64,000 nucleotides of DNA from Nanobdellota archaeon (GTDB lineage Archaea > Nanobdellota > Nanobdellia > Woesearchaeales > UBA11576), in contig JBHPEY010000005.1 of NCBI GenBank assembly GCA_042576705.1, positions 1,786-65,785 on the forward strand. Reading direction: 5' to 3'. A model generated the notes under the pieces. That model worked only from the letters and a program-made list of their open reading frames with translations, had not been told where the DNA came from and did not search any database. The stretch's first letter is position 1, and each line of letters starts with the position of its first letter. This document shows positions 9,855-42,030 of the stretch, in pieces. The position numbers were made by a program, and so were the translations under genes.

Positions 9855-11588
9855 TTACTCTGTCTTTCTCCTGTGCGCAATCTGGACGAGGATTATGAAC
9901 AAGAACCCGAGGATAGGGATGCTGATCAGAGGTATCAGGTCAAAATACCAGGGCCGCTTCCGGGGCGTGGTCTCCTCTGCGATTGTCAGCGTCGAGGTCT
10001 TCTCGTGGGCATCCTCTATCCCACCTTCAACCTCGTAATAAAGATCAGCCTTTTCCTTGAGCTCATCGAAATGCCATGCTACCAATGGATCATCCTGTAT
10101 TATCTCAGGCTGGACCGAGAACTGGATGTCTGCTGCTGACTCTGCGATGAACTTCGGGATGTACTCATAGACTGTAAATTGCTTAAGGTCCTGCGTGGGA
10201 ACTATCTCGACATGTATCCTTGTCCGGCCATCCATTATCACCGACCGCTTCTTCACGTTCACGAAGCGCTTTGTCTTCCTGTGCATGTCTAACTGCCTGT
10301 CGATGTCATACGTGCCCTTGCCCTTGTGCAGGTCTAGGAATTGCGTCAGGGCAAACTCCTCATTTGTCAGGTTCCTGGCAGGCTCTGCCCTGCAGTTCTC
10401 GTCGACATCACCGTTGCAGTTGTCATCCCTTCTGTTGCCGCACACCTCTTCTGAAGGGAGCACTGCTGTACAGCCTGTCCACTTCCCTGCGCTGCACCTC
10501 TCTGTTCCCAACACGCAGATGCCTATGTTCGAGATGCCGCACGCCCTTGTGAGGCTATCGTCCCTGATGTTGTTGCAGTCATCATCCCTGTTGTTGCACA
10601 CCTCTCTCGCGCCAGGGTTTATCGAGGCGTCGGAGTCATCGCAATCGTATGATCTCTTGCAGTACTCACCATAGCCGTCGCCATCATTGTCTATGCACTT
10701 GTTCTTATCGGTGATCGCCTTCTTCTGCGCAGCATCATCCACACTGAAGACAGGCGCGTCCTTATCATTATCCACAGTGAAAACAGGATCTTTTGGCTCG
10801 GGCTGCTGTGCCTTGTCTGACGTGGCTGTTGTGGATACAGGGCAATCCTCATCCACGTCGCCATCACAGTCATCGTCTATATTGTTGCCACATATCTCCT
10901 GCTTCGACACGATGCCATCCATGCAAGGGGACCACGCACCTTGTCCGCAGGTCCTGACACCCTTGCTGCAGGCACCCACGTCTGTCCCGCAGGGCATCTC
11001 ATCGCCCTCTGCACATTCACAGCCCTCATCCACGTTCCCGTCGCAGTCGTTGTCAATATTGTCACAGACCTCTTCCTGTGGGAATATCGCGTCGCAGCCC
11101 TGCCAGGTTCCACTCATGCATTTCTCTTCACCTTTCCGGCAGATGCCAAGATTGTTGAGACCGCAATCCTGGAACAGGTCCTCATCAATAAGATTGTCGC
11201 AATCATCATCCAGGTTGTTGCACTGCTCCTGCGCTCCGGGATGTATCTGGGAATATCCATCATCGCAATCAATGGAGTCAGGGAAGCCGTCGTTGTCAGA
11301 ATCCCTGCAGTGGGACTCTGTACTGCAGTCTGAATCGTCGCAGTCTGACAGCTGGTCGCAGTCATTGTCCTTCTGGTCGGCGCATTCTGTCTCGAACTCG
11401 TCCACAGAACACTTGTACCAGTCAGAGCAGCCACCCTCGCATAGTGTGGCGCGGGTCTTTGTGCCTCCGCAGCCGCAGGATGTTATGTTGGGCTCGCATC
11501 TCGGCAGGTGGTCGCATTGCTGGGAATAGACAGAAATAGACAGGAATGCCAGGATGAACGCTAACAGCAGGAGAGCCAGGGTTTTCAT
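9855..11588 (-). CDS. Secreted, C-terminally TM-anchored protein with duplicated Cys/Asp-rich (MopE-like putative metal/Ca-binding) modules
   Basis: Signal peptide MKTLALLLLAFILAFLSISVYS. Two copies of a module CDD..xI[HN]PGAxExCNxxDDDC[DN]xxxDE...CG..N.GxCxxGxxxCxxGxWxxC...P.EExC[DG]NxxD[DN][CN][DN]GxVDExC (aa ~95-250 and ~300-400). C-terminal TM helix and basic tail (WYFDLIPLISIPILGFLFIILVQIAHRRKTE). Confidence 0.75.
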   Translation of the reverse strand: MKTLALLLLAFILAFLSISVYSQQCDHLPRCEPNITSCGCGGTKTRATLCEGGCSDWYKCSVDEFETECADQKDNDCDQLSDCDDSDCSTESHCRDSDNDGFPDSIDCDDGYSQIHPGAQEQCNNLDDDCDNLIDEDLFQDCGLNNLGICRKGEEKCMSGTWQGCDAIFPQEEVCDNIDNDCDGNVDEGCECAEGDEMPCGTDVGACSKGVRTCGQGAWSPCMDGIVSKQEICGNNIDDDCDGDVDEDCPVSTTATSDKAQQPEPKDPVFTVDNDKDAPVFSVDDAAQKKAITDKNKCIDNDGDGYGEYCKRSYDCDDSDASINPGAREVCNNRDDDCNNIRDDSLTRACGISNIGICVLGTERCSAGKWTGCTAVLPSEEVCGNRRDDNCNGDVDENCRAEPARNLTNEEFALTQFLDLHKGKGTYDIDRQLDMHRKTKRFVNVKKRSVIMDGRTRIHVEIVPTQDLKQFTVYEYIPKFIAESAADIQFSVQPEIIQDDPLVAWHFDELKEKADLYYEVEGGIEDAHEKTSTLTIAEETTPRKRPWYFDLIPLISIPILGFLFIILVQIAHRRKTE

Positions 11589-11676: not shown

Positions 11677-14600
11677 TCAACCGGTTGCTACAGGGGATAC
11701 AGGCAACTCAAATTCCTCCTCATGCTCAAAAAAGCTGTTCCGCATCCCTACAGTTATGGTCTTTGTTATGGGCTCATCTGACGTGAAATGTGATTCATCA
11801 TAGACATGCGTAAAAATAAGATCATCAGGATTCTCAGGAGTAGAAGTCAGACCCACAAAGTCAATAGGTCTCTCTGTTATAGGCTCTTCATGATCCGGGT
11901 CAGCCCAGTCAATGATTATATCGTACGGTGTAAATCCATATGATACATCAACTGTTATCTCCAATGTCCTGGCAGGGAGCGGTTCGGACTGCACGACATC
12001 TATTACCGGGAGCAGAGCATCTACTCCTATAATCTTCTGAGCCGAAAACACCACACCATCGTGGTCTTGCACACTCACCTCGATGTTTGTCGACGCCCTA
12101 CTATGTGACCCAACAGGGCCATAGAAATGTGACTGATCATAGGTGTACTCATAATCAAAAGTGCCGTCTGCTGTTTGTGATGGTTTACTCACTGGAGACA
12201 ACGTGGCAGAATTAGGGCCGTCCCAGTCAATAGTGATACTGTACGACGGCACCCCATTGAGTATGGTCGCAGATATCCTCATCGTCCTTTCTTCAATCTG
12301 AGGCCGCTGCTCGATGGTCACCAGCGGGGATGTGCCAGCGGATATTACTACGTCATCAGCATCAGCGGAAACCTCAAAATAATCGTCCCGCACCCTCACA
12401 TTGATGTCCTTCAGTATCTCCTCTGACCCTAACTCGAAGTTGGAGTCAGCATAGGTGTGTTCATAAATAAAAGTGCCGTCCTCTGTTTCTGTCATTAGTT
12501 GTTCGTCGCCAGGTACAGGGTCAGCCCAGTCAATGTATACAGCGTAATTCCCGTCACCTTCATTCACGTTCGTACCGGCCACATCCACTGACAGCCTCAA
12601 TGTCTTGTCCTCCCACTGATCCAGCTGAGCGATCGTGACTACGGGCGGGGTGTTAGAAGCTATTGTCAGAACAGCAGTACCCTCAAACCGCGTTCCATCT
12701 GCCTCCTCCCCCCACACGCGGAATGTCTTCGTGCCAACCTCCCCGAACGGGAAGTCGCCGTAATAGTTATACGTAAAAACCTCAGGACTCAGATCATCCT
12801 CACTCAGCGGAAAGTTCTCGCCAGGTGCGGCGAATCCCCCGTAATCCGTGTAAAAACGGATAACATCATACGGTGGCACCCCATTGAGTATGGTTATAGA
12901 CATCCTCGCTATCCAGGCTGCGGTCTGGGGCAGCGGGATTATCCTCACTGTCGTCTCCTCTGAAGCTTGTATTGACATCAGATCAGCGGTCTCAAACTCA
13001 ACATGTTCGTCCTGCACGCTAACCTCTACGTTCTTTGTTATCCAAATCCATCCTTCAGGGAAACTTGAGTCATGATAGGTGTGCTCAAAAATAAAACCAT
13101 CAGCAGGACTCACAACACCATCTTCATTGACTTCTACTGTTCTTGTTGATATGCGCTCTTCATGCAGTGGGTCATTCCACTTGACAGATATATCATAAGG
13201 CGGGTACCCGCTGGCTATGTTCACGGACATCTTCAATGTCCTGTCCAACTCCTGCGTCAGCTGCTCGATGCTCACTGTCGGCGTTCCCTCAACAACAGGC
13301 GGTTCCTCTCCGACGAGGCAATTTATCTCGAAGTACTTGTTCATGACACAAAGCGTGAGCGGGCCGGTGGGCTGTTCCTCATAGATGTGCAAAAAGCCTG
13401 GAGGAGTGATGTTTTCATGATATGATGCCTTTTTACCGTCACCGAAATCCCAGGTAATCGCAATCAGGTCATCTGCAGCAGGTGCTGTCAGTTTATAATA
13501 AACCTCACCACCTTCGACGATTGTCGTAGGATCTGTGATGTATGCAGGCTCGGTAGGCACAGGTGGATTCTGATCAGGAGGAGGAGGCCGGTCCTGGGTC
13601 CTTATCTTTGCTGTTATGTCATTCCAGAAGCTGTCTGAATACTCTTTCCAGACCTTGACGTCATCGTAAGCAGGGTTAGGGGATGAGAAGGGGTTCTCCA
13701 CATATATGGAATGCATCCATTCGCCACCATCCAGTATGACCAGATTACATACCAGGTCTCTCCCATCTTCAGTTATCTGCCCCTGGATTGAGGGATTGGC
13801 TCCTATAACGCGCCCCACCAGACCACAGATATCAACAGCATAATTGGTGTACATCGCGGATATGAATGTCATGTAATCCACAACAAACCCGTCATCATCC
13901 TCTGCGACAGTCGCGCGCCTCTCGCGGATGGCACGGATCTCCCGGGCGGGTTGTGATCCGGGAAAATGGCTTATGTACAGCTTGTCGAAAGAACCTGCAT
14001 TCTCTATGAAATCAAGATTTTTCTGATGGAAATCGATAGGCTTCTCTGCAAGATAGTCTATGTTCAGCAGATCACGAATGACATTCAGCAGCCTCTCAAA
14101 GACCTCTCCTATGAAGCTCCCTGTAGCTGTATCTGCTGAAACCTGCTGTGCGAGCGGCGTGGTCTTTGAAAAAATCACATTCTTAAGCTTGGCATTGTAG
14201 ATTATGTCATCACCACTGCAGGCATGATAATCTCCGTCTGTCTCCAGTATCGCAGTCTCGCAGTAATCCATATCATTAGGGCCCTTGAGCACCTCAATGA
14301 AAGACTTATGCGCTCCGGCTATGCCTGTGCCTTCGCTGATAGCGTTATCAGCCTCTATAAGACAACCTTGATCACAAGCGTTCTCATCGATTTGGCATTG
14401 AACCCCTCCATCTACACATTCACCTTCTTCGCCGAAAACAGAGTCTATCTCTCCATTGAGCGACACCCCGGATATTATCTTGCCGTTCACCTCAAGGACG
14501 CAGAACTCATTCACACCAGCAGAGTCTAAGATTGAGGAGACATCGTCCCCTACAAAATCTATATATGTGCCCATCGTATCTATAGTCGTGCCGGATGTCG

Positions 14601-15600
14601 GCAATGCGAATTCATAACTATCACAGAAGAGGGTATATGTGTCGTCAGGAGTGGTGAAATCATGCAAGAGCTTGAAGGCAATCTCCTTTGTCCTTGTGGT
14701 CCAGTTGCCCTGATAGCAGTAGAACCATTCACTTCTCAGCGGAACGCCACCAGTATCCACCCCTGAAGACTCTTCTATATACGTGCCGTGCTCGATACAG
14801 GCATTCTCTACCAGGTGATCAGTATCGTCGCCGAAGAAGCACTGGTCATCATAGGGACAATATCCTGCTCCGTCATGCAGAGGCGTGAACTTGAGCCTTG
14901 AGAACTTCCATTCTCCGTCTATGCAGCGGAAGCCATCCGGTCCCTTAAGGTAATTCCTTGCCAGCTCTGAACCCGCTGGACTGAAGTCTGCAATCTCGTA
15001 TCCTATGGGCGGCATCGTGACACTCTTCTCATAGTAATCATCGTGGATGCATTCAGGATGCTCCTCTGTGACGCCCCCATCAGCATATTTACCAATAGCT
15101 CCTGTAAAACAGTAATCCCAGGGGCAGCAGTCTGCCTCGTACTCGTAGTCATTGAACTGGGTGAGCTTAGGGGAGGGGGTCATCTGAAGATGGTCGACGA
15201 GCAGCTCGACCGAAGCGTCGACTGCCCTGAATTTCAGCTTTACCTCATCACCCTCTAATACATCAGTTGAATTGACTGTGATGCTGAACTGCTTCCAGAT
15301 AGTCGAACTAAGACTTTTCGGTCTTGTATCGTCAGCACCAATGAAAAAATCGGCTGTGCCATCTTCCAATTTGTACATGAAAGCGACTGTGTATAGCGTG
15401 TCTGGAGTGACAGCATCTACAGTGTATGTTATGACCTGGCCTACAGCATCCATGGTGATCTCAAGGCAGTTGCAGTCATTATGTTCCACGCATCCGGGGG
15501 CAGTGTCCTCCCTTATGATCCTTGCGTCCTGCACTGCCAGGATGGGCACTGCAAGTAGAATGAATATGCAAAGCAACAAAATCCCTTTTTTTACCATCAT
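11677..15600 (-). CDS. 1307-aa secreted protein: N-terminal jelly-roll/CBM-like region, Cys-rich middle, five tandem PKD/Ig-like modules
   Basis: N-terminus MMVKKGILLLCIFILLAVPILA (signal). The C-terminal half has five ~100-aa modules sharing a core such as '...TL[RK][ML]SV[ND][IV]..G..PY[DS]I.I.W.DP': TVSIEQLTQELDRTLKMSVNIASGYPPYDISVKWNDP, VRIIPLPQTAAWIARMSITILNGVPPYDV, VVTIAQLDQWEDKTLRLSVDV, LVTIEQRPQIEERTMRISATILNGVPSYSITIDW, VIDVVQSEPLPARTLEITVDVSYGFTPYDIIIDWADP. Confidence 0.75.
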   Translation of the reverse strand: MMVKKGILLLCIFILLAVPILAVQDARIIREDTAPGCVEHNDCNCLEITMDAVGQVITYTVDAVTPDTLYTVAFMYKLEDGTADFFIGADDTRPKSLSSTIWKQFSITVNSTDVLEGDEVKLKFRAVDASVELLVDHLQMTPSPKLTQFNDYEYEADCCPWDYCFTGAIGKYADGGVTEEHPECIHDDYYEKSVTMPPIGYEIADFSPAGSELARNYLKGPDGFRCIDGEWKFSRLKFTPLHDGAGYCPYDDQCFFGDDTDHLVENACIEHGTYIEESSGVDTGGVPLRSEWFYCYQGNWTTRTKEIAFKLLHDFTTPDDTYTLFCDSYEFALPTSGTTIDTMGTYIDFVGDDVSSILDSAGVNEFCVLEVNGKIISGVSLNGEIDSVFGEEGECVDGGVQCQIDENACDQGCLIEADNAISEGTGIAGAHKSFIEVLKGPNDMDYCETAILETDGDYHACSGDDIIYNAKLKNVIFSKTTPLAQQVSADTATGSFIGEVFERLLNVIRDLLNIDYLAEKPIDFHQKNLDFIENAGSFDKLYISHFPGSQPAREIRAIRERRATVAEDDDGFVVDYMTFISAMYTNYAVDICGLVGRVIGANPSIQGQITEDGRDLVCNLVILDGGEWMHSIYVENPFSSPNPAYDDVKVWKEYSDSFWNDITAKIRTQDRPPPPDQNPPVPTEPAYITDPTTIVEGGEVYYKLTAPAADDLIAITWDFGDGKKASYHENITPPGFLHIYEEQPTGPLTLCVMNKYFEINCLVGEEPPVVEGTPTVSIEQLTQELDRTLKMSVNIASGYPPYDISVKWNDPLHEERISTRTVEVNEDGVVSPADGFIFEHTYHDSSFPEGWIWITKNVEVSVQDEHVEFETADLMSIQASEETTVRIIPLPQTAAWIARMSITILNGVPPYDVIRFYTDYGGFAAPGENFPLSEDDLSPEVFTYNYYGDFPFGEVGTKTFRVWGEEADGTRFEGTAVLTIASNTPPVVTIAQLDQWEDKTLRLSVDVAGTNVNEGDGNYAVYIDWADPVPGDEQLMTETEDGTFIYEHTYADSNFELGSEEILKDINVRVRDDYFEVSADADDVVISAGTSPLVTIEQRPQIEERTMRISATILNGVPSYSITIDWDGPNSATLSPVSKPSQTADGTFDYEYTYDQSHFYGPVGSHSRASTNIEVSVQDHDGVVFSAQKIIGVDALLPVIDVVQSEPLPARTLEITVDVSYGFTPYDIIIDWADPDHEEPITERPIDFVGLTSTPENPDDLIFTHVYDESHFTSDEPITKTITVGMRNSFFEHEEEFELPVSPVATG
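11730..13320 (-). repeat. Five tandem ~300-nt coding repeats (PKD/Ig-like modules) inside the 1307-aa gene
   Basis: Protein-level periodicity listed for the parent CDS. Boundaries are approximate, converted from aa positions ~760-1290. Confidence 0.55.
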
Positions 15601-15682: not shown

Positions 15683-17287
15683 TTAAACACTCCCTGTGCT
15701 CCATTCCCTGTGAAGGGTCTCTTTTGATATCGAAAACAAGCAGCCATTGGGAGCTGTCGGGCCTGTAGAGTCGTCCTGATCAGGGCAGTCATCGAGTGTG
15801 AATTCAGTGAAGGTGTCAGGAGGGCCCTCTATATCAAATGTCTCAGGCACGCCATCACCGTTCTCGTCTATCTCATCTACCACTCCATTGCAATTGTCAT
15901 CCAGGTCGTTATCAATCTCTGTCACGCTGGGATTTATTGCTGCGCCGCCATTAAGACAGTCAGTGCAGTCAGAACAATCAGTGCAGTCTGGGCATCCGAA
16001 ATCCTCGTTCTTGAATCCATCGCCATCAAGATCCCAATCATAGCAGCCCTGTACAGTGCCTGAATAGACGCAGTGGTGTCCTTCCAGCTCATTGATAAAA
16101 ACAGGATCCTGACCTATCTCTGCGGTCCAAGCACCGCATTCATCTGCCAGTCCATCGCAATCATTGTCTTTCAGGTCACAAAAGTCATATCCTCCTTCAA
16201 ACAACCCAGGGAAAACTCCATCATCTGCGTCATCGCAGTCACTAAAGTCATCCAGCTCTTCCCAGCCCGGTGTCAACATTATGTTCCCTATTATCCACAC
16301 AAGCTTATCTGAGAAATCTGCCTTGTACTTCAAATCCATCAACTGCTCGTCGGCCGTGAATCCCATCTGGTCAAATACCTCCTGCTCGTCAGCATCCAGA
16401 CCTGCCAGGTCTATTACTGCACCCCCTTCCGCATGGTATGTGCGTTTAAGACGAACAGAATCTTCACGACAGAAACCATCCTCATCATCATCTATACAGA
16501 TATCATTACAATCGTAGGTATCAGTATCCCTGAAAGCAGTAGCTGTGGCAGTCCCCTCATCAGAATTCACGCATGTGTCTGTGCAGATATTCGAATCGTC
16601 ATTGCAATCGAACATATAGTTGCAGTACCTGCCAGGCATGTCTTCGTGGCACAGACCATCATCGTCTAGATCTATAACACAATAGCCGTTCATACAACGC
16701 TCTCCGGCACCGCTGAAATGACCTGCACAATCATCTTGCACTGTACATGGCTGTATCCTGCAGTGGCCTTCCAGACAATACCCCTCGCCGCACTGAGCGT
16801 TGCTGGAGCACGGCGTTATGATGCATTTATTGATATCGGTGTCGCAATAACCCGCATAGTTCGTGCAATCCATATCTGTCTCACAATAAGGCCCGTCATC
16901 ACATCCCCCGTCGAACTTCACGTACCTGTCCGGGTAACATGTGACTGACGAGTCAGGAAAAGGGGATGTTGTCATATCAGTTAAACTGGTGAACGTATAA
17001 AGCTCTCCAGGATGATTTGTGAAATCTATATTGCAGCAGTAGTTAAATTGCCTGGAGTCGTATGGCTTACAACGCCAGTCATAAATGGAAGTCCTATGGC
17101 ATATGCTGGTCGGGCGATAACCTCCCTCCATCCTGCTTGAGTAATCCGGCTGGGGGCTTTCGGAAGTGAGGCAAAAGTAAGGCGGGTCGTTGTAGACCAG
17201 ATCCCAAGGCCAACAGGGCGCGTACACCTGTGCGGGAAACAAAAGGATAAGGATACATAGAATCAGAAGGGGGATTTTGGGTCTCAT
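15683..17287 (-). CDS. Secreted Cys/Asp-rich protein, paralog 1 of a tandem three-gene family
   Basis: Signal peptide MRPKIPLLILCILILLFPAQVYA. Motifs shared with the 17284 and 18764 genes: DCNDICIDDDEDGFC, CYDWDLDGDGFKNEDFGCPDCTDC, DNDLDDNCNGVVDEIDENGDGVPE, GPTAPNGC.FSI.K.TL. Start overlaps the upstream stop (ATGA 17284-17287). Confidence 0.75.
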   Translation of the reverse strand: MRPKIPLLILCILILLFPAQVYAPCWPWDLVYNDPPYFCLTSESPQPDYSSRMEGGYRPTSICHRTSIYDWRCKPYDSRQFNYCCNIDFTNHPGELYTFTSLTDMTTSPFPDSSVTCYPDRYVKFDGGCDDGPYCETDMDCTNYAGYCDTDINKCIITPCSSNAQCGEGYCLEGHCRIQPCTVQDDCAGHFSGAGERCMNGYCVIDLDDDGLCHEDMPGRYCNYMFDCNDDSNICTDTCVNSDEGTATATAFRDTDTYDCNDICIDDDEDGFCREDSVRLKRTYHAEGGAVIDLAGLDADEQEVFDQMGFTADEQLMDLKYKADFSDKLVWIIGNIMLTPGWEELDDFSDCDDADDGVFPGLFEGGYDFCDLKDNDCDGLADECGAWTAEIGQDPVFINELEGHHCVYSGTVQGCYDWDLDGDGFKNEDFGCPDCTDCSDCTDCLNGGAAINPSVTEIDNDLDDNCNGVVDEIDENGDGVPETFDIEGPPDTFTEFTLDDCPDQDDSTGPTAPNGCLFSISKETLHREWSTGSV

Positions 17288-18666
17288 GAAGTGCCCCCTA
17301 TGCGCCAGTCAGGGAGGGTGTCCTTTAATATCGAAAACCAGCAGCCGTTGGGGGCTGTCGGGCCTTCGGATTCGTCCTGGTCATCGCATTCATCGAGCGT
17401 AATCGTCACGCCATTCAAGATGAACTCCTCAGGCACACCATCACCGTTCGCGTCAACCTCATCTATCAAGCCATTGCAATTATCATCCTCACCATTATTT
17501 CCAGTATATCCACCATCTCCATCATCTTCATCAAGGCTCTCAACCACACTGGGATTTATAGCAGGATCATCATCAGCACAATCAGTGCAGTCTGGACAGC
17601 TGAAATCCTCGTTATTGAACTCATCACCATCAGCATCCCAGTCATAACACTCACCGTACTCTTCAAGATAGACACATTGCTCGTCGGGTCCTGTACATTC
17701 ATCAAGGCTATCATCACAGTCATCATTTATCAGATTGCAATGATAGGTATATTCGCCTTCAGGCACAAAAGGATTGATATCCGCATTGTAATCATCACAG
17801 TCAATGAACTCGTACGGCTCTGTGGCCTGATAGAGACCAGCAAGGTTCCCCACATCATCGTCGGGACCATCGTCAAAATTTTCCTCGTACCCCGTATCTA
17901 TTATCGTTCCCGAAAATTCCCTGAAACCAGCTTCGGTCAAATCTGTCTGGCTAGGCCCATACGGTTTTGACAGAAGGTTTGAATCGTACCAAAGGGCAGA
18001 ATTTGCTGCGCAGAAAGCATCACCGTCAGCGTCTATACATATATCCCTGCAGTCCAGCATCCATAGGTCTCTCTCTCCCAGGTTATTATTGTTACAATCA
18101 CCCAGGTCATGCGCATAACAGTTATCACTCCCATCAGAATTAAAACACAACGGGTCTGATGCCCACCCGCAAAGATTTGAATCATCATCACAGTCCTTAA
18201 CAGCCTCGGGAACAAAAGTGTCAGGCACTGTGCTGCGATAAAAGGAATCTTCATCTTGATCGGTCAGGCAATGTCCTGCAACACAGTCATCATCCGGATC
18301 GGTACAATCTACGCTGCTTTGGCAAGATGTGACCCTGTGGCAGTAATGGGCATCAGGGGTGGACTCTATTTCAATGCTAAAATCACAAAACCCTGGTTCG
18401 CAGCTGGCATCCCAATCCCCTGCTGCACTATCATACTCGCATTCCCTTAGCTGGCAAAGCCCACCATCCAGCATTTGCGAATCGTCACAATACATATAGT
18501 AATTTCTAGTGTGCCAATCACAACCCGCATGAGAATCGCAGTTTGAGGAAATCATACCTGAGACACTAATAGGAGCTGCCAAAAGAAGCAACACTATTCC
18601 TGTGTACAACAGCACAGCCTGCATTGTTTCCCTGTTACTCGTTTTAACCTCAAATATTTTCGGCAT
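17284..18666 (-). CDS. Secreted Cys/Asp-rich protein, paralog 2
   Basis: Hydrophobic N-terminus (MQAVLLYTGIVLLLLAAPISVSG, from the internal ATG at 18624). Family motifs DCRDICIDADGDAFC, CYDWDADGDEFNNEDFSCPDCTDC, EDDNCNGLIDEVDANGDGVPE, EGPTAPNGCWFSILKDTLPDW. Confidence 0.75.
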   Translation of the reverse strand: MPKIFEVKTSNRETMQAVLLYTGIVLLLLAAPISVSGMISSNCDSHAGCDWHTRNYYMYCDDSQMLDGGLCQLRECEYDSAAGDWDASCEPGFCDFSIEIESTPDAHYCHRVTSCQSSVDCTDPDDDCVAGHCLTDQDEDSFYRSTVPDTFVPEAVKDCDDDSNLCGWASDPLCFNSDGSDNCYAHDLGDCNNNNLGERDLWMLDCRDICIDADGDAFCAANSALWYDSNLLSKPYGPSQTDLTEAGFREFSGTIIDTGYEENFDDGPDDDVGNLAGLYQATEPYEFIDCDDYNADINPFVPEGEYTYHCNLINDDCDDSLDECTGPDEQCVYLEEYGECYDWDADGDEFNNEDFSCPDCTDCADDDPAINPSVVESLDEDDGDGGYTGNNGEDDNCNGLIDEVDANGDGVPEEFILNGVTITLDECDDQDESEGPTAPNGCWFSILKDTLPDWRIGGTS

Positions 18667-18763
18667 CCTCTTTCCTAACTACACAATCATGGCTCTTGTC
18701 ATTTTCGGAACTTATCTAGTGTAACATATTGTATCCCCTATGTTTATAGGATTATCATGCATC

Positions 18764-20359
18764 TCATGAAGCGCTCCCATCGCTCCAGTCGGGGAGGGTG
18801 TCCTTTAATATCGAAAACCAGCAGCCGTTGGGGGCTGTCGGGCCTTCGGATTCGTCCTGATCAGGGCATTCATCGAGCGTGAATTCAGTGAAGGTGAAAG
18901 GCGGGCCCTCTATCTCAAAGGTCTCAGGTACGCCATCGCCGTTCTCATCAATCTCATCCACCACACCATTGCAGTTGTCATCCAGGTCGTTATCGATCTC
19001 TGTAGCTTCGGGATTGGTCTCTGGTCCAACCCTCCCATCATGACACTCAGCAGGGCAGTCTGCACAGTCGGTGCAATCAGGACAGCCGAAGTGCTCACCC
19101 TTGAAGGTATCACCATCAAAATCCAAATCATAACATCCCGGAATACCGCTTGAATAGACACACTGCTTTTCAGGCTCTGCACATTCATCAAGGGTGCCAT
19201 CACAGTCATTATTGACAAGATCACACTGGTCGTCTTCAAAGAGTCCCGGGTTCAAGGAAACATCCTCATCATCGCAATCATAAAACGTATTCTGTCCTTC
19301 ATTCCAATCACCCAGCAGGGAAGATATGATCTCCTTAAAATCGAGCTTGTATTGCTCATCATATATCGCTGTGTCCACTCTCTCAACACCCAATGAGGTC
19401 AGATCGCTTTCTGCAAACCCCTGTGAGACCAGCTCACTCACCATCTCCTGATCGATCTTTTTTGCAGATAGGGATGAGCACCACCCATCACCATCATAAT
19501 CTATGCAGAAATCGTTACAATCGTACCCGTCCTGATTCCTCTTGCCTGTCTGCCAGAAACCAGAGTCAGATGCCTGCGGGTGTGTACCCTCCAGCTTTGA
19601 ACAATCATCCTGACAAAGGCTTGATCCATCATGGCAGTCGATCTTTCCTCCGCAGAACTCTGGAGGGATATCAGGATGACAGAAACCATCCCCGTCCACA
19701 TCCTTTGCGCAGTTTCCCTCTATACAGCGTTCATCTGCCCCTTCGCAATCGTTGTCAGACTGGCATTCTATTATACGGTAGCAACCCCCTGTTGCAGGAT
19801 CACTACCTATCGACGTGTCGCAGTATCCTGGGAAACACGCAGCGTCATTCCCTGCAGAACAGGATTTTTGCTCACACTTCTCTGAAACGCAGTAATAGTA
19901 AGCAGACTCGCAATGATTATGCTCGCGACAGGGTGGCTGGAACTCACAGCTTCCGTCGGCATGGACATACTGGTCATTGTCGCAGGCCCAATCTGTCCCT
20001 CCAGGCACGGTAAAAGTGACAAAGTCTTGATTCCTGTCTTCTTCAGGCCTCCAAGCCAGATCCGTGCTTACATACGTTGTCGTACCGCCCCATCCAAGTG
20101 CCGTACAGCAAAATGTCTCTTGCTGTGTCCGGATATCCTTACATTCTGCAACCTCATTCTTCTCTATACAGATCTTATTTCCCATATCGGTCATACTAAA
20201 CCCTGTACCTGTCGGCTCTGTGGCAGAATTTACACAGCTGGTGAAACTACCTAACGCGTATTCCCAGCAGGTAGAAAAAACAGGCGTGCTTACCAGACAT
20301 AACACCACAATGCACGTCAGCAGCATGCGCAAGCATCTATTCTTAAGCAGGTCAGACAT
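18764..20359 (-). CDS. Secreted Cys/Asp-rich protein, paralog 3
   Basis: The track start 20371 is GTG; the first ATG is at 20359 (MSDLLKNRCLRMLLTCIVVLCLVSTPVFS). It overlaps the stop of the 1153-aa gene by 8 nt (ATGTCTGA). The C-terminus EGPTAPNGCWFSILKDTLPDW is identical to paralog 2; the ~60 aa before it are nearly identical to paralog 1. Confidence 0.75.
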   Translation of the reverse strand: MSDLLKNRCLRMLLTCIVVLCLVSTPVFSTCWEYALGSFTSCVNSATEPTGTGFSMTDMGNKICIEKNEVAECKDIRTQQETFCCTALGWGGTTTYVSTDLAWRPEEDRNQDFVTFTVPGGTDWACDNDQYVHADGSCEFQPPCREHNHCESAYYYCVSEKCEQKSCSAGNDAACFPGYCDTSIGSDPATGGCYRIIECQSDNDCEGADERCIEGNCAKDVDGDGFCHPDIPPEFCGGKIDCHDGSSLCQDDCSKLEGTHPQASDSGFWQTGKRNQDGYDCNDFCIDYDGDGWCSSLSAKKIDQEMVSELVSQGFAESDLTSLGVERVDTAIYDEQYKLDFKEIISSLLGDWNEGQNTFYDCDDEDVSLNPGLFEDDQCDLVNNDCDGTLDECAEPEKQCVYSSGIPGCYDLDFDGDTFKGEHFGCPDCTDCADCPAECHDGRVGPETNPEATEIDNDLDDNCNGVVDEIDENGDGVPETFEIEGPPFTFTEFTLDECPDQDESEGPTAPNGCWFSILKDTLPDWSDGSAS

Positions 20360-23300
20360 TCTCGAAACCACCGTTCTTTACAAGGTTGTAGTTCCGCTTT
20401 GTATGTATCCTCCGGGTCGGGCCAGGATCATCAGTATCAATGGTTATCTCTGAACCATCCTCTGCTGTCAGTTTCCCTTCGGCGTCAGGGTGTATCTTCA
20501 CAGGTGTGTCGCTCCAGCCCAGGTTCCTGCTGTCCTCATGCTCACAGAAGTAGTCTCCTAGAACTTCGCATGTCGGGCCTTCGCTTCTCAAGAAATCAGA
20601 GATAAGCGGATCACCTTCATCAGGAGGGACTGTGATCGTCAGGTCATCGAAGTACTCATCAACAGCATTACAGGCGTGGAAGTCTTCGTCGAAATACAGT
20701 ATCTGAAGAGGGACGTTCTCTGCCTTGAGCCAGACCTTGTCAGACGGAGCGAGCGCGCCTGCACCTATATCCATCCGTCCGTATGTTGTGGAGGTGAACA
20801 AAAGGTCATATAGTTCGGGGTATTCATTGGTTATCAGCACGTTCTGCATAGGAGGAAGCTCAAATGAACAGTTATAGTTCCTGCATGACCTTTGTATATT
20901 GTGTTCCTGGCCTGAAGAGTACATGTCGTACTTAAGCATCATCACCCTCGAGTTCTCTGCCAGCTTGTTCCCTGCCCAGCAGCCAGCATACGTGTCGCTG
21001 TAGTACTCCTTGAATGTCTCCCTGCCACGAAGGTTATTTGGATCATTAAATGCGTAGAATACAGCATCCCTTCCTGTGTCATCGCCGCAGCACATGTTCC
21101 CTGTCCAGCCATAGCTGGGAATGGAGTCACAGGTGAACCTTCCTGCGGGGTTGTCTCCAGCAGGGAGGGAGTCATCCACAGTACCGTCTTCATCCAGATC
21201 CTTTATCCATGTAGGCGGCCAGGTCGCTGTGCAGTAGGCATTCTCAGCGCCGGGTCCAGCTGCGTTGGTGTGGGTTATAGGGTCCAGGTCGCTGCCGCTC
21301 TGACTCTTCGGCTCATTGTAAGGCCTGAGGGATATCTTATCAACCCCTACAATGTTGCTGTACGACGCGCTTTCTCCAGCTATCTGCACTGTGTCAAAAT
21401 CCAGAAGCCTCTCTCCGTCAGATACAAATGCGAGCACATCAGGCCGCAATCCTTCAGGCCGCATGATCTCGTTGGTCGGTATGACCACATGCAGCCATTT
21501 CTCAAGCTCGGGTTCATTGACCACATAGTCCACAATCCTGAATTTGACAGGGAAGATATAGTTATCGAAATCACTCAATCCGCCAGTGCCGTCAAACTGA
21601 CCTACCCAGAGCTCAACCTCATAATTCGCAGTGAACAATATATAGAACTCAAGGAACTTATAGTCACCCCAATTCGTTATGTTCAGATCCCCTTTCTGGG
21701 TGAAAAGCCCGAACCTTAAAAACTTCTTATTACCGATAGGGTTTTCTGTATCTTCTATCTCCTCTCGGAAACTATCTGTAATTCTTTCGATCTTATACCT
21801 CAAGACAAAATTGGTCTTGTCCAGGTCTGCCACTGAATCCGGGTCAATATCGGTACTCTCCTCATCAGGCTCAGCATCCTCAACATCACCATACCTGTCG
21901 AACTCCCGCAGTGTGTGTACTGCGGTGCCGACACGCACACCCCTGTCAGGGTTCCTGCATTTGCTCAGGTCAAACCCGCAGCACTCGGTGAACTGACCCC
22001 TCTCACCCACATAATTACACAGGTAACGGGGGGTCTGGAACTTGGCATCGTTCTCATTCTCATCTGAACCCTCCAGTGAGTCAAGAGGATTGATATGGCA
22101 ATCGGTGTCTAGGTTGCAGTCTAGGTCGCAGTCACCACCCTCACAATCGCTGAGCCTCTGGCAGAAGTCTGTCGCACCAGGATGCTTCATCCGGGCAATG
22201 CCTGCCATACCATGATCATTCAGGTCATCATGAGGGTTGTCATCACAGTCATAAGGCGCCCTTGGATTCTTGCAATCGGGGTTGAATTTGCCGTACTCAC
22301 CTGTATTCTCATCCTTTACCATGGGATCTCCTGCACCCGTCTGAGAACTCCACAGGTTACTGTCATACCCATCACCGTCCATGTCGCAGGCGGTTATCTG
22401 TGTCGGCCCGTCAATATCATATGTATCTGAATTGAAGTTATCTTCAGTTATTATCCCATCACTTCCACTACCCATAGGCGGATCATCAGTACCAGTACCA
22501 CTATTGAATTCACCCTCGTCAATATCTAATATATCCTCATCTTCAGTCTCTGCGTCAGTACTGTAAGTTGTCGGCATGGTGCTATGGGGGATGCCCTGAT
22601 ATTGCGCAACGCCGATTCCTGACGTCCAATCAGAAGTACCCAGGCCTGGCTGCCAGTCGTCTACTAGGGAATTGACAGGAGCGTAGGTATGTATGATATC
22701 TATTACACAGGCGAACCAGTTGTCTACATTGGATATCATGTCATACTCCATATCAAACCGTCTTATGGGAATTATGTTGAACTCATTGTTTACATCCTGT
22801 GAGAATGCCCATTTCATATCACCTGCAGGGTTCACTATCGTGTCATTGTAGCACAGGTAGGTATTTTTGCTGTCAATGCTTGTGGAGCTTGTGTCCTCAT
22901 TCTTGGCAATTGCGCCGATGTCAAGGTCTCCGTCGTTTCCGCAGCAGCGATCTATGAAGGGTTCAGCTGCATCGTCACGGAAGTCATCTGGAAATATGTC
23001 TTCGCCTGGCAAATGGGTGTACCAGTCACGTCCGTAGGACCGTGGGCTGTTTGCAGTATCCGGGACTTGCTGGCACCCACCGAGACTTGAAGTACCTATA
23101 CCTGAAACAACACCCGTATTTGGATAAACGTTATCAATACCTTCACAGAATTCCTGCGTCCAGTCAGCCATCTCGTCACATGAATCCCTGCTGAGGATGT
23201 CCGCTTCTATGCAAGTCCAGTCAAGAGACCCTGCGAATGGTAAAGTGAAGCTTGTAATGTCCTGATCTATTCTATCTATGTTATTTACAACCAGGCAGCT

Positions 23301-28960: not shown

Positions 28961-30322
28961 TCAATATTTGTGCCTAAAACAACCCCCTGTGCATTTGACT
29001 ATAGCATATCTGCAATCAATACACTCAGGATGGCTCAGGTTAGATACTAGTTTTTCCATGTTGGCCTTGAACAAGAGAGTGTTCAGCCTGTTGAATGAAA
29101 TAATAGGGGAATCATCCTCATCTGACTTAAATATCCTTGCAATCTTAATCGGATGCTGGTTACAGTGCAATAACTCAAAATCAGAATTAATAAGGCCATA
29201 GTCCCCGGGGCGGCAAGTCGAGTTGAAATAATCTATCAAGTTTGATCTTTTGATAAAATCAATAGAATCTCTTGTCCAAAAACACAGAGGAATCTTGTGA
29301 TCGAAGCTCAAAAAATCAGTTTTTGCCCTAATAATATGATCTACAACAGCCACCCATCTCTTATTCAATAAATCCTTGTTTTCAAAAATATTCTCAACAC
29401 AATTCAGCGTCACATTAAATTTCATCCTATCGACACACTTTTCTCTGCACGCGTCAATGACAGCATCAATCTTCGAGAAAAGACCGTCTATGTCTGTTTT
29501 CGCTCCCACCATCGTCTCAAAAGTGCGGTTAAACTGCAGCTTTGGCAGGACCTTATCATAATCAAAGCCTCTATTTATAAGGCCAAGGTTATAAGTGATA
29601 GAATCGGTCTCTCTTGGTTTTACATTCAGAATCTCTTCATTGACTGCGTTCGTGAACAGGCCCACCCGGCTGAATCTTTTCTGGGCATATTCATATAGCA
29701 TTCTAAAATCAGGATGTACTGTAGGTTCACCACCCATTATCTTCAGCTCACTGGTGTGCTTTGACAGGTAATCAAAAAGTGCCATTGCACGTCTTGATTC
29801 CATATGCTTTTTTGTCCTAATATCCTTGTTGAAACAGTGCGGACAATTAGAATTACAGTTCTCTGTCAGCAAAACACGTATCCGCTGAATATATTCTGGA
29901 ACTGAACTCTTGTTGATATCAGGAAATGATTCCATCCGCAGAGCCAGAATCTGCGGAGGGATGTTCAGCGTGCGACAAGCAAGAAGCCGCGTGTTACCTG
30001 CAACAACGCAAGGCCGGTAACCATTGCGAAAAAGTACGGACGGTGCGGGAACAGACCCTCCTGTATGCATGGCTTCCTGTATCAGACCAAATTCTCTTTT
30101 GTGTTTCGTCTGTTCCTGTCGTTCTTCTGTCGGTGCGCCGCCATCGATGGACTCGCAGTTCTCAAGAATGGACCAATCAGCAGCATCTAATGACTCCAGA
30201 TGAGACTCACGGAACAATCTTATCAGAAGAGAAGCATCTAAATCAAGGAAATGTGCTGTGCGTTTTATCTCCCCCAGTTCCCTCTCAACCGCGGGTTTTA
30301 CCCAAATAGGCTGTGTGGCCAT
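28961..30322 (-). CDS. Radical SAM enzyme with a ~140-aa N-terminal ParB/Srx-like domain
   Basis: NCNSNCPHC (Cx3Cx2C) at about aa 157. C-terminal CIDCRYAIVKCTGGC suggests an auxiliary cluster. The N-terminal PAPSVLFRNGYRPCVVAGNTRLLACRTLNIPPQILALRM resembles the ParB-like core (P.lv...g.y.v.dG.hRl.Aa..lg...ip). That domain call is weak. Confidence 0.65.
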   Translation of the reverse strand: MATQPIWVKPAVERELGEIKRTAHFLDLDASLLIRLFRESHLESLDAADWSILENCESIDGGAPTEERQEQTKHKREFGLIQEAMHTGGSVPAPSVLFRNGYRPCVVAGNTRLLACRTLNIPPQILALRMESFPDINKSSVPEYIQRIRVLLTENCNSNCPHCFNKDIRTKKHMESRRAMALFDYLSKHTSELKIMGGEPTVHPDFRMLYEYAQKRFSRVGLFTNAVNEEILNVKPRETDSITYNLGLINRGFDYDKVLPKLQFNRTFETMVGAKTDIDGLFSKIDAVIDACREKCVDRMKFNVTLNCVENIFENKDLLNKRWVAVVDHIIRAKTDFLSFDHKIPLCFWTRDSIDFIKRSNLIDYFNSTCRPGDYGLINSDFELLHCNQHPIKIARIFKSDEDDSPIISFNRLNTLLFKANMEKLVSNLSHPECIDCRYAIVKCTGGCFRHKY

Positions 30323-30498
30323 GATCGTGAGAAATTATCAAAACTCTCTGCTTTAACCATCTCTAACAAAGCAAACCTGTTTTTCATCTTCTACTCGGGT
30401 TCAGGTTTTTTTAAATATCTTTCTGTTTTATGAAACACAGCAATATTGAAAATTTATAAACATAAGAGATTCTATTATAAATGCTATGCAGCATATTT

Positions 30499-31425
30499 TT
30501 ACCCAAACATGATTACAAAACCTCCCCCATCAAAGGTTGTTTTGCCTATAGTGAATTTGCTGAAAGAATCACACACAATGCTCGTGTTTGACCTTAGTTC
30601 ATCAAAAAATCTCCCTTTGCTCACAGACCCTTTGATATTCCGGTAGTTAATACGTCCGCTTTTGAATTCGTAATCAGATGTGAAAAATATCCCTTCCTCT
30701 TCAGTATACAATACAAAAGATTTCAATACTCTCTCGTAATTCTCCTTTAATTCAGGTGCGTACGCACCCAGTACTTTCAAGAAGCGTTCTCCAAGCGTTC
30801 TTGACCTCTCACAATCAAAACTACAGGGAAAGTGTGATAAAATGCTGATTCCAAAATACCTTAAACAAAAGTTGTTTACAAATGGAAATATAGCAAGATC
30901 CTTGATTGCTGAAACTATAAGATCCCCTTGATGTCTTGCAGCAGTCTTGATGTTCTTCAGGTAATACTCAACACAGCACTTAGGGTATCCCAGCATAATC
31001 CCAAAATCAGGGTGGTTTATCTTCTCATATTCTTTTGCCTGCAACGCATCCTCCCGCGACATTGAAATATACACCAAATACTTTCCATCATTATTGTTGA
31101 GGGCAACCATATCTGACCGGTTTGCCAATGCCCCGCCTTTACCTTTGTCAAACCTTTCTACAATCTTGAAGTCCTGCACAGCCATAAACAACCGGTTCTT
31201 TTCACATAAAGTTGATATGGACCTCAACTCATCTTCTGATACAACTAAACGACAGGCCCTTTTGTGAGAGTGATATGTCAAAAGTACCTCTAAAATGTCC
31301 TGATAAGAAGAAAAAATCTTCTTCAGACCTGAATGCAGTTCTAGATTGGTTTCCATGTTTTCCATATTTACCTGCAGCACGCCCTTTATTTTAATACTTC
31401 CTTTCTTAAAAGCCATCTTTACCAT
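30499..31425 (-). CDS. Hypothetical protein with GYPKCC ... HFPCSFDC cysteine motifs (possibly DUF483-like)
   Basis: 308-aa ORF. MLGYPKCCVEYY and SHFPCSFDCERS give four Cys in two pairs, a possible metal site. Start uncertain (ATGs at 31425, 31416, 31365). Family assignment is from memory only. Confidence 0.45.
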   Translation of the reverse strand: MVKMAFKKGSIKIKGVLQVNMENMETNLELHSGLKKIFSSYQDILEVLLTYHSHKRACRLVVSEDELRSISTLCEKNRLFMAVQDFKIVERFDKGKGGALANRSDMVALNNNDGKYLVYISMSREDALQAKEYEKINHPDFGIMLGYPKCCVEYYLKNIKTAARHQGDLIVSAIKDLAIFPFVNNFCLRYFGISILSHFPCSFDCERSRTLGERFLKVLGAYAPELKENYERVLKSFVLYTEEEGIFFTSDYEFKSGRINYRNIKGSVSKGRFFDELRSNTSIVCDSFSKFTIGKTTFDGGGFVIMFG

Positions 31426-31441
31426 AACATTTAAATGTTAT
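31424..31441. promoter_or_regulatory. Perfect 18-nt palindrome ATAACATTTAAATGTTAT (bidirectional BRE/TATA candidate)
   Basis: Sits between the divergent genes 30499-31425 and 31454/31496-32353. It contains the recurrent AACATTTAAA motif in both orientations. Confidence 0.4.
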
Positions 31442-31453
31442 TCTTAATACTGT

Positions 31454-32353: not shown

Positions 32354-32378
32354 ATACCTACAACGATTCCCTTCTGCT

Positions 32379-32723
32379 TTAGGGTGTATATCTACTACAC
32401 TCTGTGGTTATATTCATGTCGGCGTCGCCGTCCAGCATATCAAGATCAATAGATATATTTTTTAAATTCCCTGGTTCAATAAGTCCCACCTTAGCTTTCT
32501 TCAATTCTTCTTCGTTACCATGATAGAATCCTAATATAATATCACAATCCAGCTTCATTTTATCATCATTTCTAATCAGAAATGATATGACATCGGTACT
32601 TTGATTCGTCTCCCAATCGTACACGGCTGTTTGAGAAAAATTCAACAAAGAAACATCAAAACTCGCTTTTGGTGCACAACCTATCAGGAGAAATAACAAT
32701 ATCACCCAAGCTACTCTATTCAT
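32379..32723 (-). CDS. Small lipoprotein-like secreted protein
   Basis: From ATG 32723: MNRVAWVILLFLLIGCAPK, a lipobox-like LIGC. The longer track ORF (to 32774) would overlap the p30 gene by 59 nt, so I trimmed it. Confidence 0.5.
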   Translation of the reverse strand: MNRVAWVILLFLLIGCAPKASFDVSLLNFSQTAVYDWETNQSTDVISFLIRNDDKMKLDCDIILGFYHGNEEELKKAKVGLIEPGNLKNISIDLDMLDGDADMNITTECSRYTP

Positions 32724-33324: not shown

Positions 33325-33327
33325 CTT

Positions 33328-34685: not shown

Positions 34686-34738
34686 GAGAGAAAGGGTTGA
34701 AAGAGGAAATATAAAGGTTTAGATTGGTTTTATTAGGC

Positions 34739-35113: not shown

Positions 35114-35119
35114 CTGTCC

Positions 35120-36669: not shown

Positions 36670-36679
36670 TTTGGGTTTA

Positions 36680-36697
36680 AATTAACTATGGTTAATT
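36680..36697. promoter_or_regulatory. 18-nt palindrome AATTAAC-TATG-GTTAATT, candidate operator
   Basis: Lies between the minus-oriented BRE/TATA (36711-36725) and ATG 36669, about where the transcription start is expected. Confidence 0.4.
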
Positions 36698-36710
36698 AAC
36701 GATAGTGAAT

Positions 36711-36725: not shown

Positions 36726-36776
36726 GTGGTTTTTGTCAGATAAAACCCTGATTTTCCTGCTCAACAAAACCAGATG

Positions 36777-36786: not shown

Positions 36787-36787
36787 A

Positions 36788-42028: not shown

Positions 42029-42030
42029 TC

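What the first reader, a model, noticed from the sequence alone, without database searches (positions are those of the whole stretch)
15683..20371. Three tandem paralogs with mosaic, partly identical 3' ends (gene conversion signature)
Seen in sequence: 17312-17379 and 18792-18859 are identical over 68 nt (offset exactly 1480 nt). This stretch encodes ...EGPTAPNGCWFSILKDTLPD in paralogs 2 and 3. Immediately upstream, paralog 3 (18860-19005) stops resembling paralog 2 and instead closely matches paralog 1 (about 15775-15920), encoding EIDNDLDDNCNGVVDEIDENGDGVPETF.IEGPP.TFTEFTLD.CPDQD. The N-terminal two thirds of the three proteins are much more diverged. Inference: a conserved C-terminal ~85-aa module is homogenised by recombination while the rest diversifies. 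That pattern is seen in surface-protein families under diversifying selection, or where the C-terminus is a common docking/sorting module.
Basis: seen in the sequence. Interest (0 to 1): 0.6.

Follow-up and report, generated by a model that had tools for sequence, protein, structure and literature searches.

The report
Gene-converted tails of archaeal surface paralogs
Three side-by-side copies of a secreted, cysteine-rich surface-protein gene in a tiny (DPANN-type) archaeon have had their last ~130 codons repeatedly overwritten by one another, and that shared end is the piece that in related genomes is fused to the next protein of the operon, so it is most likely the plug that docks three different 'heads' onto one common stalk.

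Summary
Three intact tandem paralogs lie on the minus strand: P1 15683-17287, P2 17284-18666 and P3 18764-20371. P2 and P3 share an exact 68-nt tract, and just upstream P3 switches to resembling P1.

The mosaic is significant (3SEQ-type walk p<=5e-5; third positions only, p about 0.003). Synonymous sites are saturated in the N-terminal two thirds. They are far from saturated in the last ~130-145 codons, where dS falls to 0.11. In the N region P3 is closest to the single-copy orthologue of a related contig. In the tail the three paralogs are 61-84% identical but only 32-37% identical to that orthologue. This is concerted evolution by gene conversion, not conservation alone.

In several relatives this protein is fused N-terminally to the orthologue of the downstream gene, pkd1307. 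The tail motif (GCW[FY]S...NL.GW) sits at the junction, at the start of a CBM_4_9-type beta-sandwich. The upstream gene always ends in the missing first strand of that domain (YNLVKNGGFENV).

The homogenised tail is therefore probably a docking element, which is inferred and not shown. It is not a sorting signal. The mechanism is ordinary; the context is interesting.

The parts
15683..17287 (-). P1, 534-aa secreted acidic Cys-rich paralog (8% Cys, 21% D+E). Its start overlaps the P2 stop (ATGA).
   Evidence: (PF11617 32.4 bits)
17284..18666 (-). P2, 460-aa paralog. It lacks the first ~100-aa CW..CC subdomain of P1 and P3.
18764..20371 (-). P3, 535-aa paralog. The real start is probably the ATG at 20359, which overlaps the upstream stop by 8 nt as in the orthologous contig L008. 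Its N-terminal two thirds are orthologous to the single copy in L008.
17312..17379 (-). 68-nt exact conversion tract, P2 copy
18792..18859 (-). 68-nt exact conversion tract, P3 copy (part of the P2-like block 18762-18880)
18878..19006 (-). P1-like block of P3, matching P1 at 15797-15925. dN 0.04 and dS 0.67 versus P1; dS 2.06 versus P2.
15686..16072 (-). C-terminal module of P1 (CVY... to the end): MopE-type Cys/Asp motif plus the GC[WL]FS...L..W tail
17287..17676 (-). C-terminal module of P2
18767..19162 (-). C-terminal module of P3
20352..23813 (-). up1153, the upstream secreted 1153-aa protein. Its last 12 codons (20355-20390, YNLVKNGGFENV) match CBM_4_9 profile positions 2-11.
11677..15600 (-). 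pkd1307, the downstream secreted PKD-domain protein. Its mature N-terminus (15121-15534) is the body of the CBM_4_9-like sandwich and starts exactly where the P tail ends in fused orthologues.
9855..11588 (-). mopE577, the only protein of the operon with a C-terminal membrane anchor (TM 547-573 plus RRKTE)

Best explanation
P1, P2 and P3 are old tandem duplicates of one component of a conserved surface-protein operon of a small DPANN-type archaeon. The operon order is A24-like peptidase | up1153 | P | pkd1307 | mopE577 (membrane anchor) | 10-TM protein | 2399-aa protein.

Shown: the N-terminal two thirds of the three copies have diverged until synonymous sites are saturated. The last ~130-145 codons have been repeatedly overwritten among the copies by non-reciprocal recombination (gene conversion). 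The most recent event is a P2<->P3 tract containing 68 identical nt. An older P1<->P3 tract lies just upstream, and a further P2-like block of P3 lies around the DCDG..DEC motif.

Inferred: the homogenised end is the connector of the protein. In relatives the same module is covalently fused to the N-terminus of the pkd1307 orthologue. There the tail (GCW[FY]S...NL.GW) lies at the start of a CBM_4_9-type beta-sandwich. The body of that sandwich is the mature N-terminus of pkd1307, and its canonical first strand is the conserved extreme C-terminus of up1153. I therefore propose that each P protein docks non-covalently through its tail onto the pkd1307 sandwich, together with the up1153 strand. 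The three paralogs would then be alternative 'heads' for one stalk, and conversion plus selection keeps their connectors matched to the genome's own partners.
For: Gene conversion:
- Exact 68-nt tract, p<=5e-5.
- Mosaic walk with P3 as child of P1 and P2: p<=5e-5 for all sites and 0.0025-0.004 for third positions.
- NG86 dS is uncomputable (saturated) in the N region. It is 0.67 for the P1-P3 block and 0.11 for the P2-P3 block.
- Synonymous-codon identity at conserved residues equals the random expectation in the N region (0.47-0.49 against 0.42-0.44). It is 0.57-0.93 in the C-terminal 145 codons, with p down to 1e-5.
- Tail identity is 61-84% among the paralogs but 32-37% to the L008 orthologue, whereas in the N region P3-L008 is 43% and P3-P1/P2 is 35-38%.
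- The C-region tree groups the paralogs (77/94) and rejects P3+L008 (p-AU 0.009). The N-region tree prefers P3+L008 (77/81).
- The same within-genome tail similarity appears in the two other genomes that carry two copies: G003 46% and G008 54%, against <=43% across genomes.

Docking:
- A syntenic operon has a single P copy or a P-pkd fusion.
- Stand-alone module versus fused region by hhalign: probability 99.5%, E 4e-23, ending at NL.GW.
- The Pfam CBM_4_9 hit in fused orthologues starts at NL.GW (26.6 and 30.1 bits, above the 25.9 gathering threshold).
- Unfused pkd orthologues start, after their signal peptide, right behind that motif.
- AlphaFold model of a natural fused segment: pLDDT 82.6, pTM 0.79, with strands in the tail at pLDDT 84-89. 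The fold matches CBM4, CBM16 and CBM22 at E 2e-8.
- About 25 stand-alone family clusters all end 0-9 residues after NL.GW.
- All 13 up1153 orthologues seen end in YN[LIF][IV].N[GPS][GS]FE... Joining that tail in silico adds 9-12 bits and moves the profile start from position 12-14 to 2. Shuffled tails add 0-2 bits.
Against: - Coverage, strain mixtures and polymorphism of the tracts remain unchecked.
- The N-region tree does not reject monophyly of the three paralogs (p-AU 0.16). 'Duplication older than the split from L008' is therefore likely but not proven.
- Docking is inferred only. No multimer model or experiment exists, and the model of P3 alone is uninformative (pLDDT 42.6).
- The window's own three-piece join reaches only 17-20 bits for CBM_4_9, below the gathering score, and gives nothing with the P1 tail or for L008.
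- A control showed that the score gain from inserting the P tail is not sequence-specific: shuffled tails score as well (41.6-43.7 against 40.8 bits). The tail's place in the fold rests on position, conservation and the AlphaFold model, not on the profile score.
Confidence: 0.7

Rival explanations
1. Purifying selection alone. The C-terminal module is simply the slowest-evolving part of three anciently diverged paralogs, and no DNA exchange occurred.
For: The module is the best-conserved part of the family across genomes and carries invariant Cys, Asp and Trp positions. The P1-P3 block has dN/dS of about 0.06.
Against: Synonymous sites and third positions carry the same signal. A 68-nt run without a single synonymous change has p<=5e-5. 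Between genomes the tail is less conserved (32-37%) than the N region (43%), the opposite of what constraint alone predicts. P3 switches its nearest relative from P1 to P2 within 10 codons.
Confidence: 0.05
2. Unequal crossing-over or partial re-duplication. The mosaics are chimeric genes left by copy-number changes in the tandem array, not by conversion between stable copies.
For: The copies are tandem, in the same orientation and 1480-1601 nt apart. Relatives differ in copy number (1, 2 or 3) and in the position of P genes.
Against: P3 shows at least three alternating blocks (P2-like, P1-like, P2-like). A single crossover gives one breakpoint. The blocks have different ages (dS 0.11 against 0.67). 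The N-terminal regions are all equally old.
Confidence: 0.15
3. Assembly or strain-chimera artefact. The metagenomic assembler joined paralogs or strains through shared k-mers.
For: The genome is a 77-contig metagenome-type assembly. A 68-nt repeat is longer than small k-mers. Reads could not be checked.
Against: A mis-join through the 68-nt repeat in a tandem array would delete the 1480 nt between the copies rather than create a mosaic, yet both copies are present with unique flanks on one contig. The P1-like block shares no exact run longer than 20 nt with P1, so no k-mer collapse can have produced it. All three frames are intact.
Confidence: 0.05
4. The shared tail is a C-terminal sorting or processing signal, for example for an archaeosortase-like enzyme or for the neighbouring A24-like peptidase / radical-SAM cassette, rather than a docking element.
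For: A conserved motif sits at the extreme C-terminus in about 25 family clusters. An A24-like peptidase and rSAM genes are syntenic with the operon in several genomes.
Against: The tail has no hydrophobic helix or basic end. The motif is found in no other gene of the 1.7-Mb genome. In fused orthologues the motif is internal and continuous with a folded CBM domain.
Confidence: 0.08

Closest known systems
Concerted evolution of the 3' ends of Helicobacter pylori outer-membrane adhesin paralogs (babA/babB, homA/homB, sabA/sabB)
   Same: These are paralogous surface proteins whose 5' and middle parts behave as orthologues between strains. Their 3' segments are most alike within a genome because of RecA-type intragenomic gene conversion. 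The conserved C-terminus is the part that fixes the protein to the cell, and the variable N-terminus is the binding part (PMC3960876, citing Pride & Blaser 2002).
   Different: Here the organism is an archaeon and the copies are adjacent in one operon. The homogenised end is not a membrane beta-barrel but a Cys/Asp-rich module plus a short tail that belongs to a split CBM-type sandwich. No population data are available.
Donor-strand complementation in chaperone-usher pili and strand exchange in type V pili (established structural knowledge, recalled from memory and not tested here)
   Same: A beta-sandwich that is incomplete in one polypeptide is completed by a terminal strand of the neighbouring subunit. 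This gives very stable non-covalent joints between secreted subunits encoded in one operon.
   Different: The fold is a CBM4/9-type jelly roll, not an Ig-like pilin. The pieces lie at C-termini (up1153, P) and an N-terminus (pkd1307). No chaperone or usher is present. Complementation is only inferred here.
CBM_4_9 carbohydrate-binding modules (Pfam PF02018; CBM4-2 of Rhodothermus marinus xylanase, CBM16, CBM22)
   Same: There are profile matches above the gathering score in fused orthologues. The AlphaFold model of the fused segment superposes on CBM4-2, CBM16 and CBM22.
   Different: In this operon the domain is interrupted after profile position ~11 by a stop codon and a whole Cys-rich protein. 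In this window it is interrupted a second time after position ~20. Sugar binding is untested, and the domain may serve only as a joint.
Modular receptor-binding proteins of phage tails (conserved attachment end, exchangeable distal end)
   Same: There is one conserved connector and several divergent distal parts, with mosaicism generated by recombination at the connector boundary.
   Different: The polarity is reversed, with the connector at the C-terminus. This is a cellular operon with no phage genes nearby.

Membership tests
Gene conversion / concerted evolution between paralogs | Statistically supported breakpoints where the nearest relative changes along the gene | tested here: met
   3SEQ-type walk p<=5e-5 (all sites) and 0.0025-0.004 (third positions). 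Blocks lie at alignment columns 455-472, 488-594 and 597-622.
Gene conversion / concerted evolution between paralogs | Reduced synonymous divergence inside the tracts relative to the rest of the genes | tested here: met
   dS is saturated in the N region against 0.11-0.67 in the tracts. The codon-identity test gives p down to 1e-5.
Gene conversion / concerted evolution between paralogs | Paralogs within a genome are more alike than orthologues between genomes in the tract, but not outside it | tested here: met
   Identity by region. The C-region tree rejects P3+L008 (p-AU 0.009) while the N-region tree prefers it at 77/81, although paralog monophyly there is not rejected (p 0.16). The pattern repeats in G003 and G008.
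Gene conversion / concerted evolution between paralogs | Tracts real in the DNA of the organism (reads, strains) | not testable with these tools
No near-identical relatives were found in metagenome or genome contigs.
Pfam PF11617 (MopE-type putative metal-binding motif) | Profile match above the gathering score (27 bits) | tested here: met
   P1 scores 32.4 bits and P3 30.0 bits. P2 has no reported hit although it aligns to the same motif.
Pfam PF02018 CBM_4_9, as a domain split over up1153, P and pkd1307 | Profile match above the gathering score (25.9 bits) and the matching fold | tested here: inconclusive
   Met in fused orthologues (26.6 and 30.1 bits), which have a CBM4/16/22 fold. Met for in-silico joins from G008 (40.8) and G003 (31.1). 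The window's own join reaches only 17.1-20.0 bits, gives nothing with the P1 tail, and pkd1307 alone gives nothing. The up1153 tail's contribution is sequence-specific; the P tail's is not.
Archaeal C-terminal sorting signals (PGF-CTERM and similar archaeosortase substrates) | Signature motif followed by a hydrophobic helix and a basic tail at the C-terminus, shared by many proteins of the genome | tested here: not met
   No hydrophobic segment lies at the C-terminus of P1-P3. The tail is found only in these three genes.
Chaperone-usher type donor-strand complementation | Incomplete Ig-like pilin fold plus a dedicated chaperone and usher | tested here: not met
   No pilin, chaperone or usher families were found in the operon. 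The fold is a CBM jelly roll. This is a resemblance of mechanism only.

The most novel reading that the evidence does not exclude
A single CBM4/9-type beta-sandwich is encoded in pieces on consecutive genes. The first strand is the last 12 residues of up1153, the next segment is the tail of a P protein, and the body is the N-terminus of pkd1307. The sandwich is rebuilt outside the cell as a non-covalent two- or three-chain joint that assembles a DPANN archaeal surface complex. The three tandem P paralogs are interchangeable heads for that joint. Gene conversion is the means by which the genome keeps all heads compatible with a fast-evolving socket.
Probability: 0.3. Interest if true: 0.75.

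Novelty: new variant of a known kind. Interest (0 to 1): 0.5.

Why it matters
Gene conversion between tandem surface-protein paralogs is textbook biology. This is a clean archaeal example, in a lineage (small, probably host-dependent DPANN archaea) whose cell-surface machinery is almost entirely uncharacterised. The comparison with relatives turns an anonymous 'conserved tail' into a concrete, testable assembly rule. The ends of three consecutive secreted proteins together spell one known fold. If the split sandwich is indeed a joint, it explains how anchorless giant proteins of these archaea are held on the cell. It would also explain how alternative tips can be swapped on one scaffold, and it would offer a natural split-domain system for protein engineering.

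Tried and rejected
- The search for related loci with P3 found no near relatives in metagenome or genome contigs.
- The AlphaFold model of whole P3 with six sequences was useless (pLDDT 42.6).
- Pfam on the window's pkd1307 N-domain alone, on P tail + pkd1307, and on up tail + pkd1307 gave no CBM hit. All L008 joins gave none either.
- I first read the +10-12 bits gained by inserting the P tail between the up1153 tail and the pkd body as specific evidence. A shuffle control showed that it is a spacing and composition effect, and I withdrew that argument. The up1153-tail gain survived its shuffle control.
- The N-region tree could not reject monophyly of the three paralogs.
- dN/dS for diversifying selection in the N region is not computable because dS is saturated.
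- A genome-wide search for the tail as a common sorting signal found nothing.
- Literature searches found no description of this operon or family.
Full report
**What is there.** Window 15683-20371 holds three consecutive minus-strand ORFs.

| Gene | Coordinates | Length |
|---|---|---|
| P1 | 15683-17287 | 534 aa |
| P2 | 17284-18666 | 460 aa |
| P3 | 18764-20371 | 535 aa |

- The likely real start of P3 is the ATG at 20359. It overlaps the stop of the upstream gene by 8 nt, as in the orthologous contig.
- All three have an N-terminal signal peptide and no other hydrophobic segment. They contain 7-8% Cys and 21-24% Asp+Glu.
- The only Pfam match is the MopE-type 'putative metal-binding motif' PF11617.
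- The organism is an archaeon: the window also carries RNase P p30, Orc1/Cdc6 and the PolD small subunit.
- The genome is 1.7 Mb in 77 contigs. Earlier notes of this scan call it a Woesearchaeota/DPANN archaeon. I did not test that label.

- 17312-17379 and 18792-18859 are identical over exactly 68 nt. The permutation p is <=5e-5 even within the last 93 codons, where P2-P3 identity is 76%.
- P2-P3 similarity covers 17282-17400 / 18762-18880 at 92%.
- Immediately upstream, P3 instead follows P1. 15714-15934 versus 18795-19015 is 86% identical, and 20-codon windows reach 85-93% against 49-71% for P2-P3.

**It is recombination, not just constraint.**
- *Breakpoint test.* I ran a 3SEQ-type random walk over informative sites. 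P3 as a mosaic of P1 and P2 gives p<=5e-5 for all positions and 0.0025-0.004 for third codon positions only. There are three alternating blocks.
- *Synonymous divergence.* NG86 dS cannot be computed in the N-terminal ~400 codons because it is saturated. It is 0.67 in the P1-like block of P3 (dN 0.04) against 2.06 for P2-P3 there. It is 0.11 in the P2-like block against 0.43-0.45 for the other pairs.
- *Codon identity.* At residues conserved between a pair, identical codons occur at the frequency expected from codon usage in the N region (0.47-0.49 against 0.42-0.44, not significant). They occur far more often from the CVY motif to the stop (0.57-0.93, p down to 1e-5).
- The homogenised part is therefore about 130-145 codons long, and all three pairs are affected at different ages.

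**Relatives give the polarity.**
- The family is rare. A word-indexed search of 5.8 billion proteins found six hits.
- A full profile search of 1.8 billion representatives found about 25 full-length clusters, besides many generic MopE-repeat proteins.
- A Logan contig (L008) carries the same operon with a single P gene.
- In the N region P3 is 43% identical to that single copy, but only 38% and 35% identical to P1 and P2. In the last ~80 residues the paralogs are 61-84% identical to one another and 32-37% to L008.
- The N-region tree joins P3 with L008 (77/81), but monophyly of the paralogs is not rejected (p-AU 0.16). The C-region tree joins the three paralogs (77/94) and rejects P3+L008 (p-AU 0.009).
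- This is the signature described for babA/babB and homA/homB of Helicobacter pylori: interstrain similarity in the 5' and middle parts, and intrastrain similarity in the 3' part (PMC3960876).
- Two other genomes of the family, G003 and G008, carry two P copies flanking the pkd gene. In both, the last 60 residues are most alike within the genome (46% and 54%, against <=43% across genomes).

**What the shared end is.**
- The operon is conserved in the family in this order: A24-like peptidase | up1153 | P | pkd1307 | mopE577 | 10-TM protein | 2399-aa protein.
- In G007, G017, G012 and G016, and in database proteins P0012, P0014, P0016 and P0164, the P-like region is fused to the N-terminus of the pkd1307 orthologue.
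- Profile-profile comparison of the stand-alone module with the fused region gives probability 99.5% and E 4e-23. The stand-alone proteins end at the NL.GW motif.
- In the fused proteins the Pfam CBM_4_9 match begins at that motif (26.6 and 30.1 bits, gathering score 25.9).
- Unfused pkd orthologues, including the window's, start after their signal peptide exactly behind it (alignment A3).
- An AlphaFold model of a natural fused segment (P0014 residues 400-590) is confident: pLDDT 82.6 and pTM 0.79. It has beta strands in the tail region at pLDDT 84-89, followed by the sandwich. Its best structural matches are CBM4-2, CBM16 and CBM22 (E 2e-8).
- All stand-alone family members end 0-9 residues after NL.GW.
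- The tail is not a general sorting signal. It occurs only in these three genes of the genome and has no hydrophobic or basic end.

**A further piece.**
- Every up1153 orthologue seen ends in YN[LIF][IV].N[GPS][GS]FE.. followed by the stop. I saw 13, from genomes with split and with fused P.
- Joined in silico in front of NL.GW..., this tail raises the CBM_4_9 score by 9-12 bits in four of four fused orthologues. It also moves the profile start from position 12-14 to position 2.
- Shuffled tails add only 0-2 bits.
- The canonical first strand of the sandwich is therefore encoded at the end of the preceding gene.
- For the window itself, the join up1153 tail + P2 or P3 tail + mature pkd1307 gives 20.0 and 17.1 bits. 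It gives nothing with the P1 tail or with any piece left out. These scores are below the gathering threshold.
- A shuffle control showed that the gain from inserting the P tail is a spacing effect and is not sequence-specific. I do not count it as evidence for the tail's identity.

**How it most likely works.**
- *Shown:* tandem triplication; ancient divergence of the N-terminal parts; repeated conversion of the 3' ~400 nt; fusion of this module to the next protein in relatives; a CBM-type domain interrupted by gene boundaries.
- *Inferred:* the P tail, the up1153 tail and the pkd1307 N-domain reassemble into one sandwich outside the cell. This would tie the anchorless proteins together and, through the operon's only anchored member mopE577, to the membrane.
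- *Inferred:* the three P proteins are alternative heads. Conversion together with selection keeps their connectors matched to the genome's own socket, which itself evolves fast between genomes.
- P1 has the most derived tail (GCLFS...HREW) and may bind differently or not at all.

**Limits.**
- No read-level check was possible. An assembler join through the 68-nt repeat would delete 1480 nt rather than build a mosaic, and the P1-like block shares no exact run longer than 20 nt with P1. I therefore rate an artefact as unlikely, but it remains untested.
- Docking is a hypothesis.
- Whether the N-terminal parts are under diversifying selection cannot be decided, because dS is saturated.

Noticed in passing
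window 20355-20390 (C-terminus of the 1153-aa protein); also L008, L019-L029: All 13 orthologues of the upstream 1153-aa protein end in YN[LIF][IV].N[GPS][GS]FE.. directly before the stop. This is the canonical first strand of a CBM_4_9 domain (profile positions 2-11), cut off from the rest of the domain by the gene boundary.
   Followed up: partly
window 15683-20371: The public protein collection holds shortened calls of all three genes (P0003 430 aa, P0020 403 aa, P0001 476 aa). These start at internal Met codons and lack the signal peptides. Homology with orthologues extends upstream of those starts.
   Followed up: partly
window 23959-30322; L008, L019, L022, L024, L026: The A24-like peptidase and radical-SAM (Hxs-like) genes lie next to the up1153 orthologue in at least five related genomes. 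The cassette and the surface-protein operon are therefore conserved neighbours, and a functional link (maturation of these proteins?) is conceivable.
   Followed up: no
L019 (G003:C1) and L025 (G008:C103): These genomes have two P-family genes flanking the pkd gene: a short one of 317/320 aa upstream and a long one of 523/585 aa downstream. Their tails share genome-specific features, for example NPYG.DG in both G008 copies.
   Followed up: partly
library proteins P0042 (644 aa) and P0058 (568 aa): The two family members have nearly identical last ~45 residues (...DMPDEWDECDDEGPA.GYPVDYNGCR.STDDNDDGDSRDNLPGWSV) but very different N-terminal parts. This is possibly the same concerted-evolution pattern in another genome. 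Their contigs could not be looked up.
   Followed up: no
window 11677-13000 (C-terminal ~450 aa of the 1307-aa protein): The window's pkd1307 is about 450 aa longer than most unfused orthologues (835-976 aa). The extra part consists of several ~110-aa repeats (...T[IV].Q......RT[LM].[IL]S..[IV]..G.PPY.I.[IV]DW.D...).
   Followed up: no
window 24000-44000 versus 1-24000: G+C is 0.38-0.47 in 24-44 kb, against 0.46-0.51 in the surface-protein operon. This agrees with the earlier by-eye note of a compositional shift.
   Followed up: no
window 17284-17310: The last codons of P2 (..ATA GGG GGC ACT TCA TGA) contain a G-rich Shine-Dalgarno-like stretch and overlap the ATG of P1 (ATGA). This may explain why P2's final residues (RIGGTS) differ from P3's (SDGSAS) right after the converted tract.
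   Followed up: no
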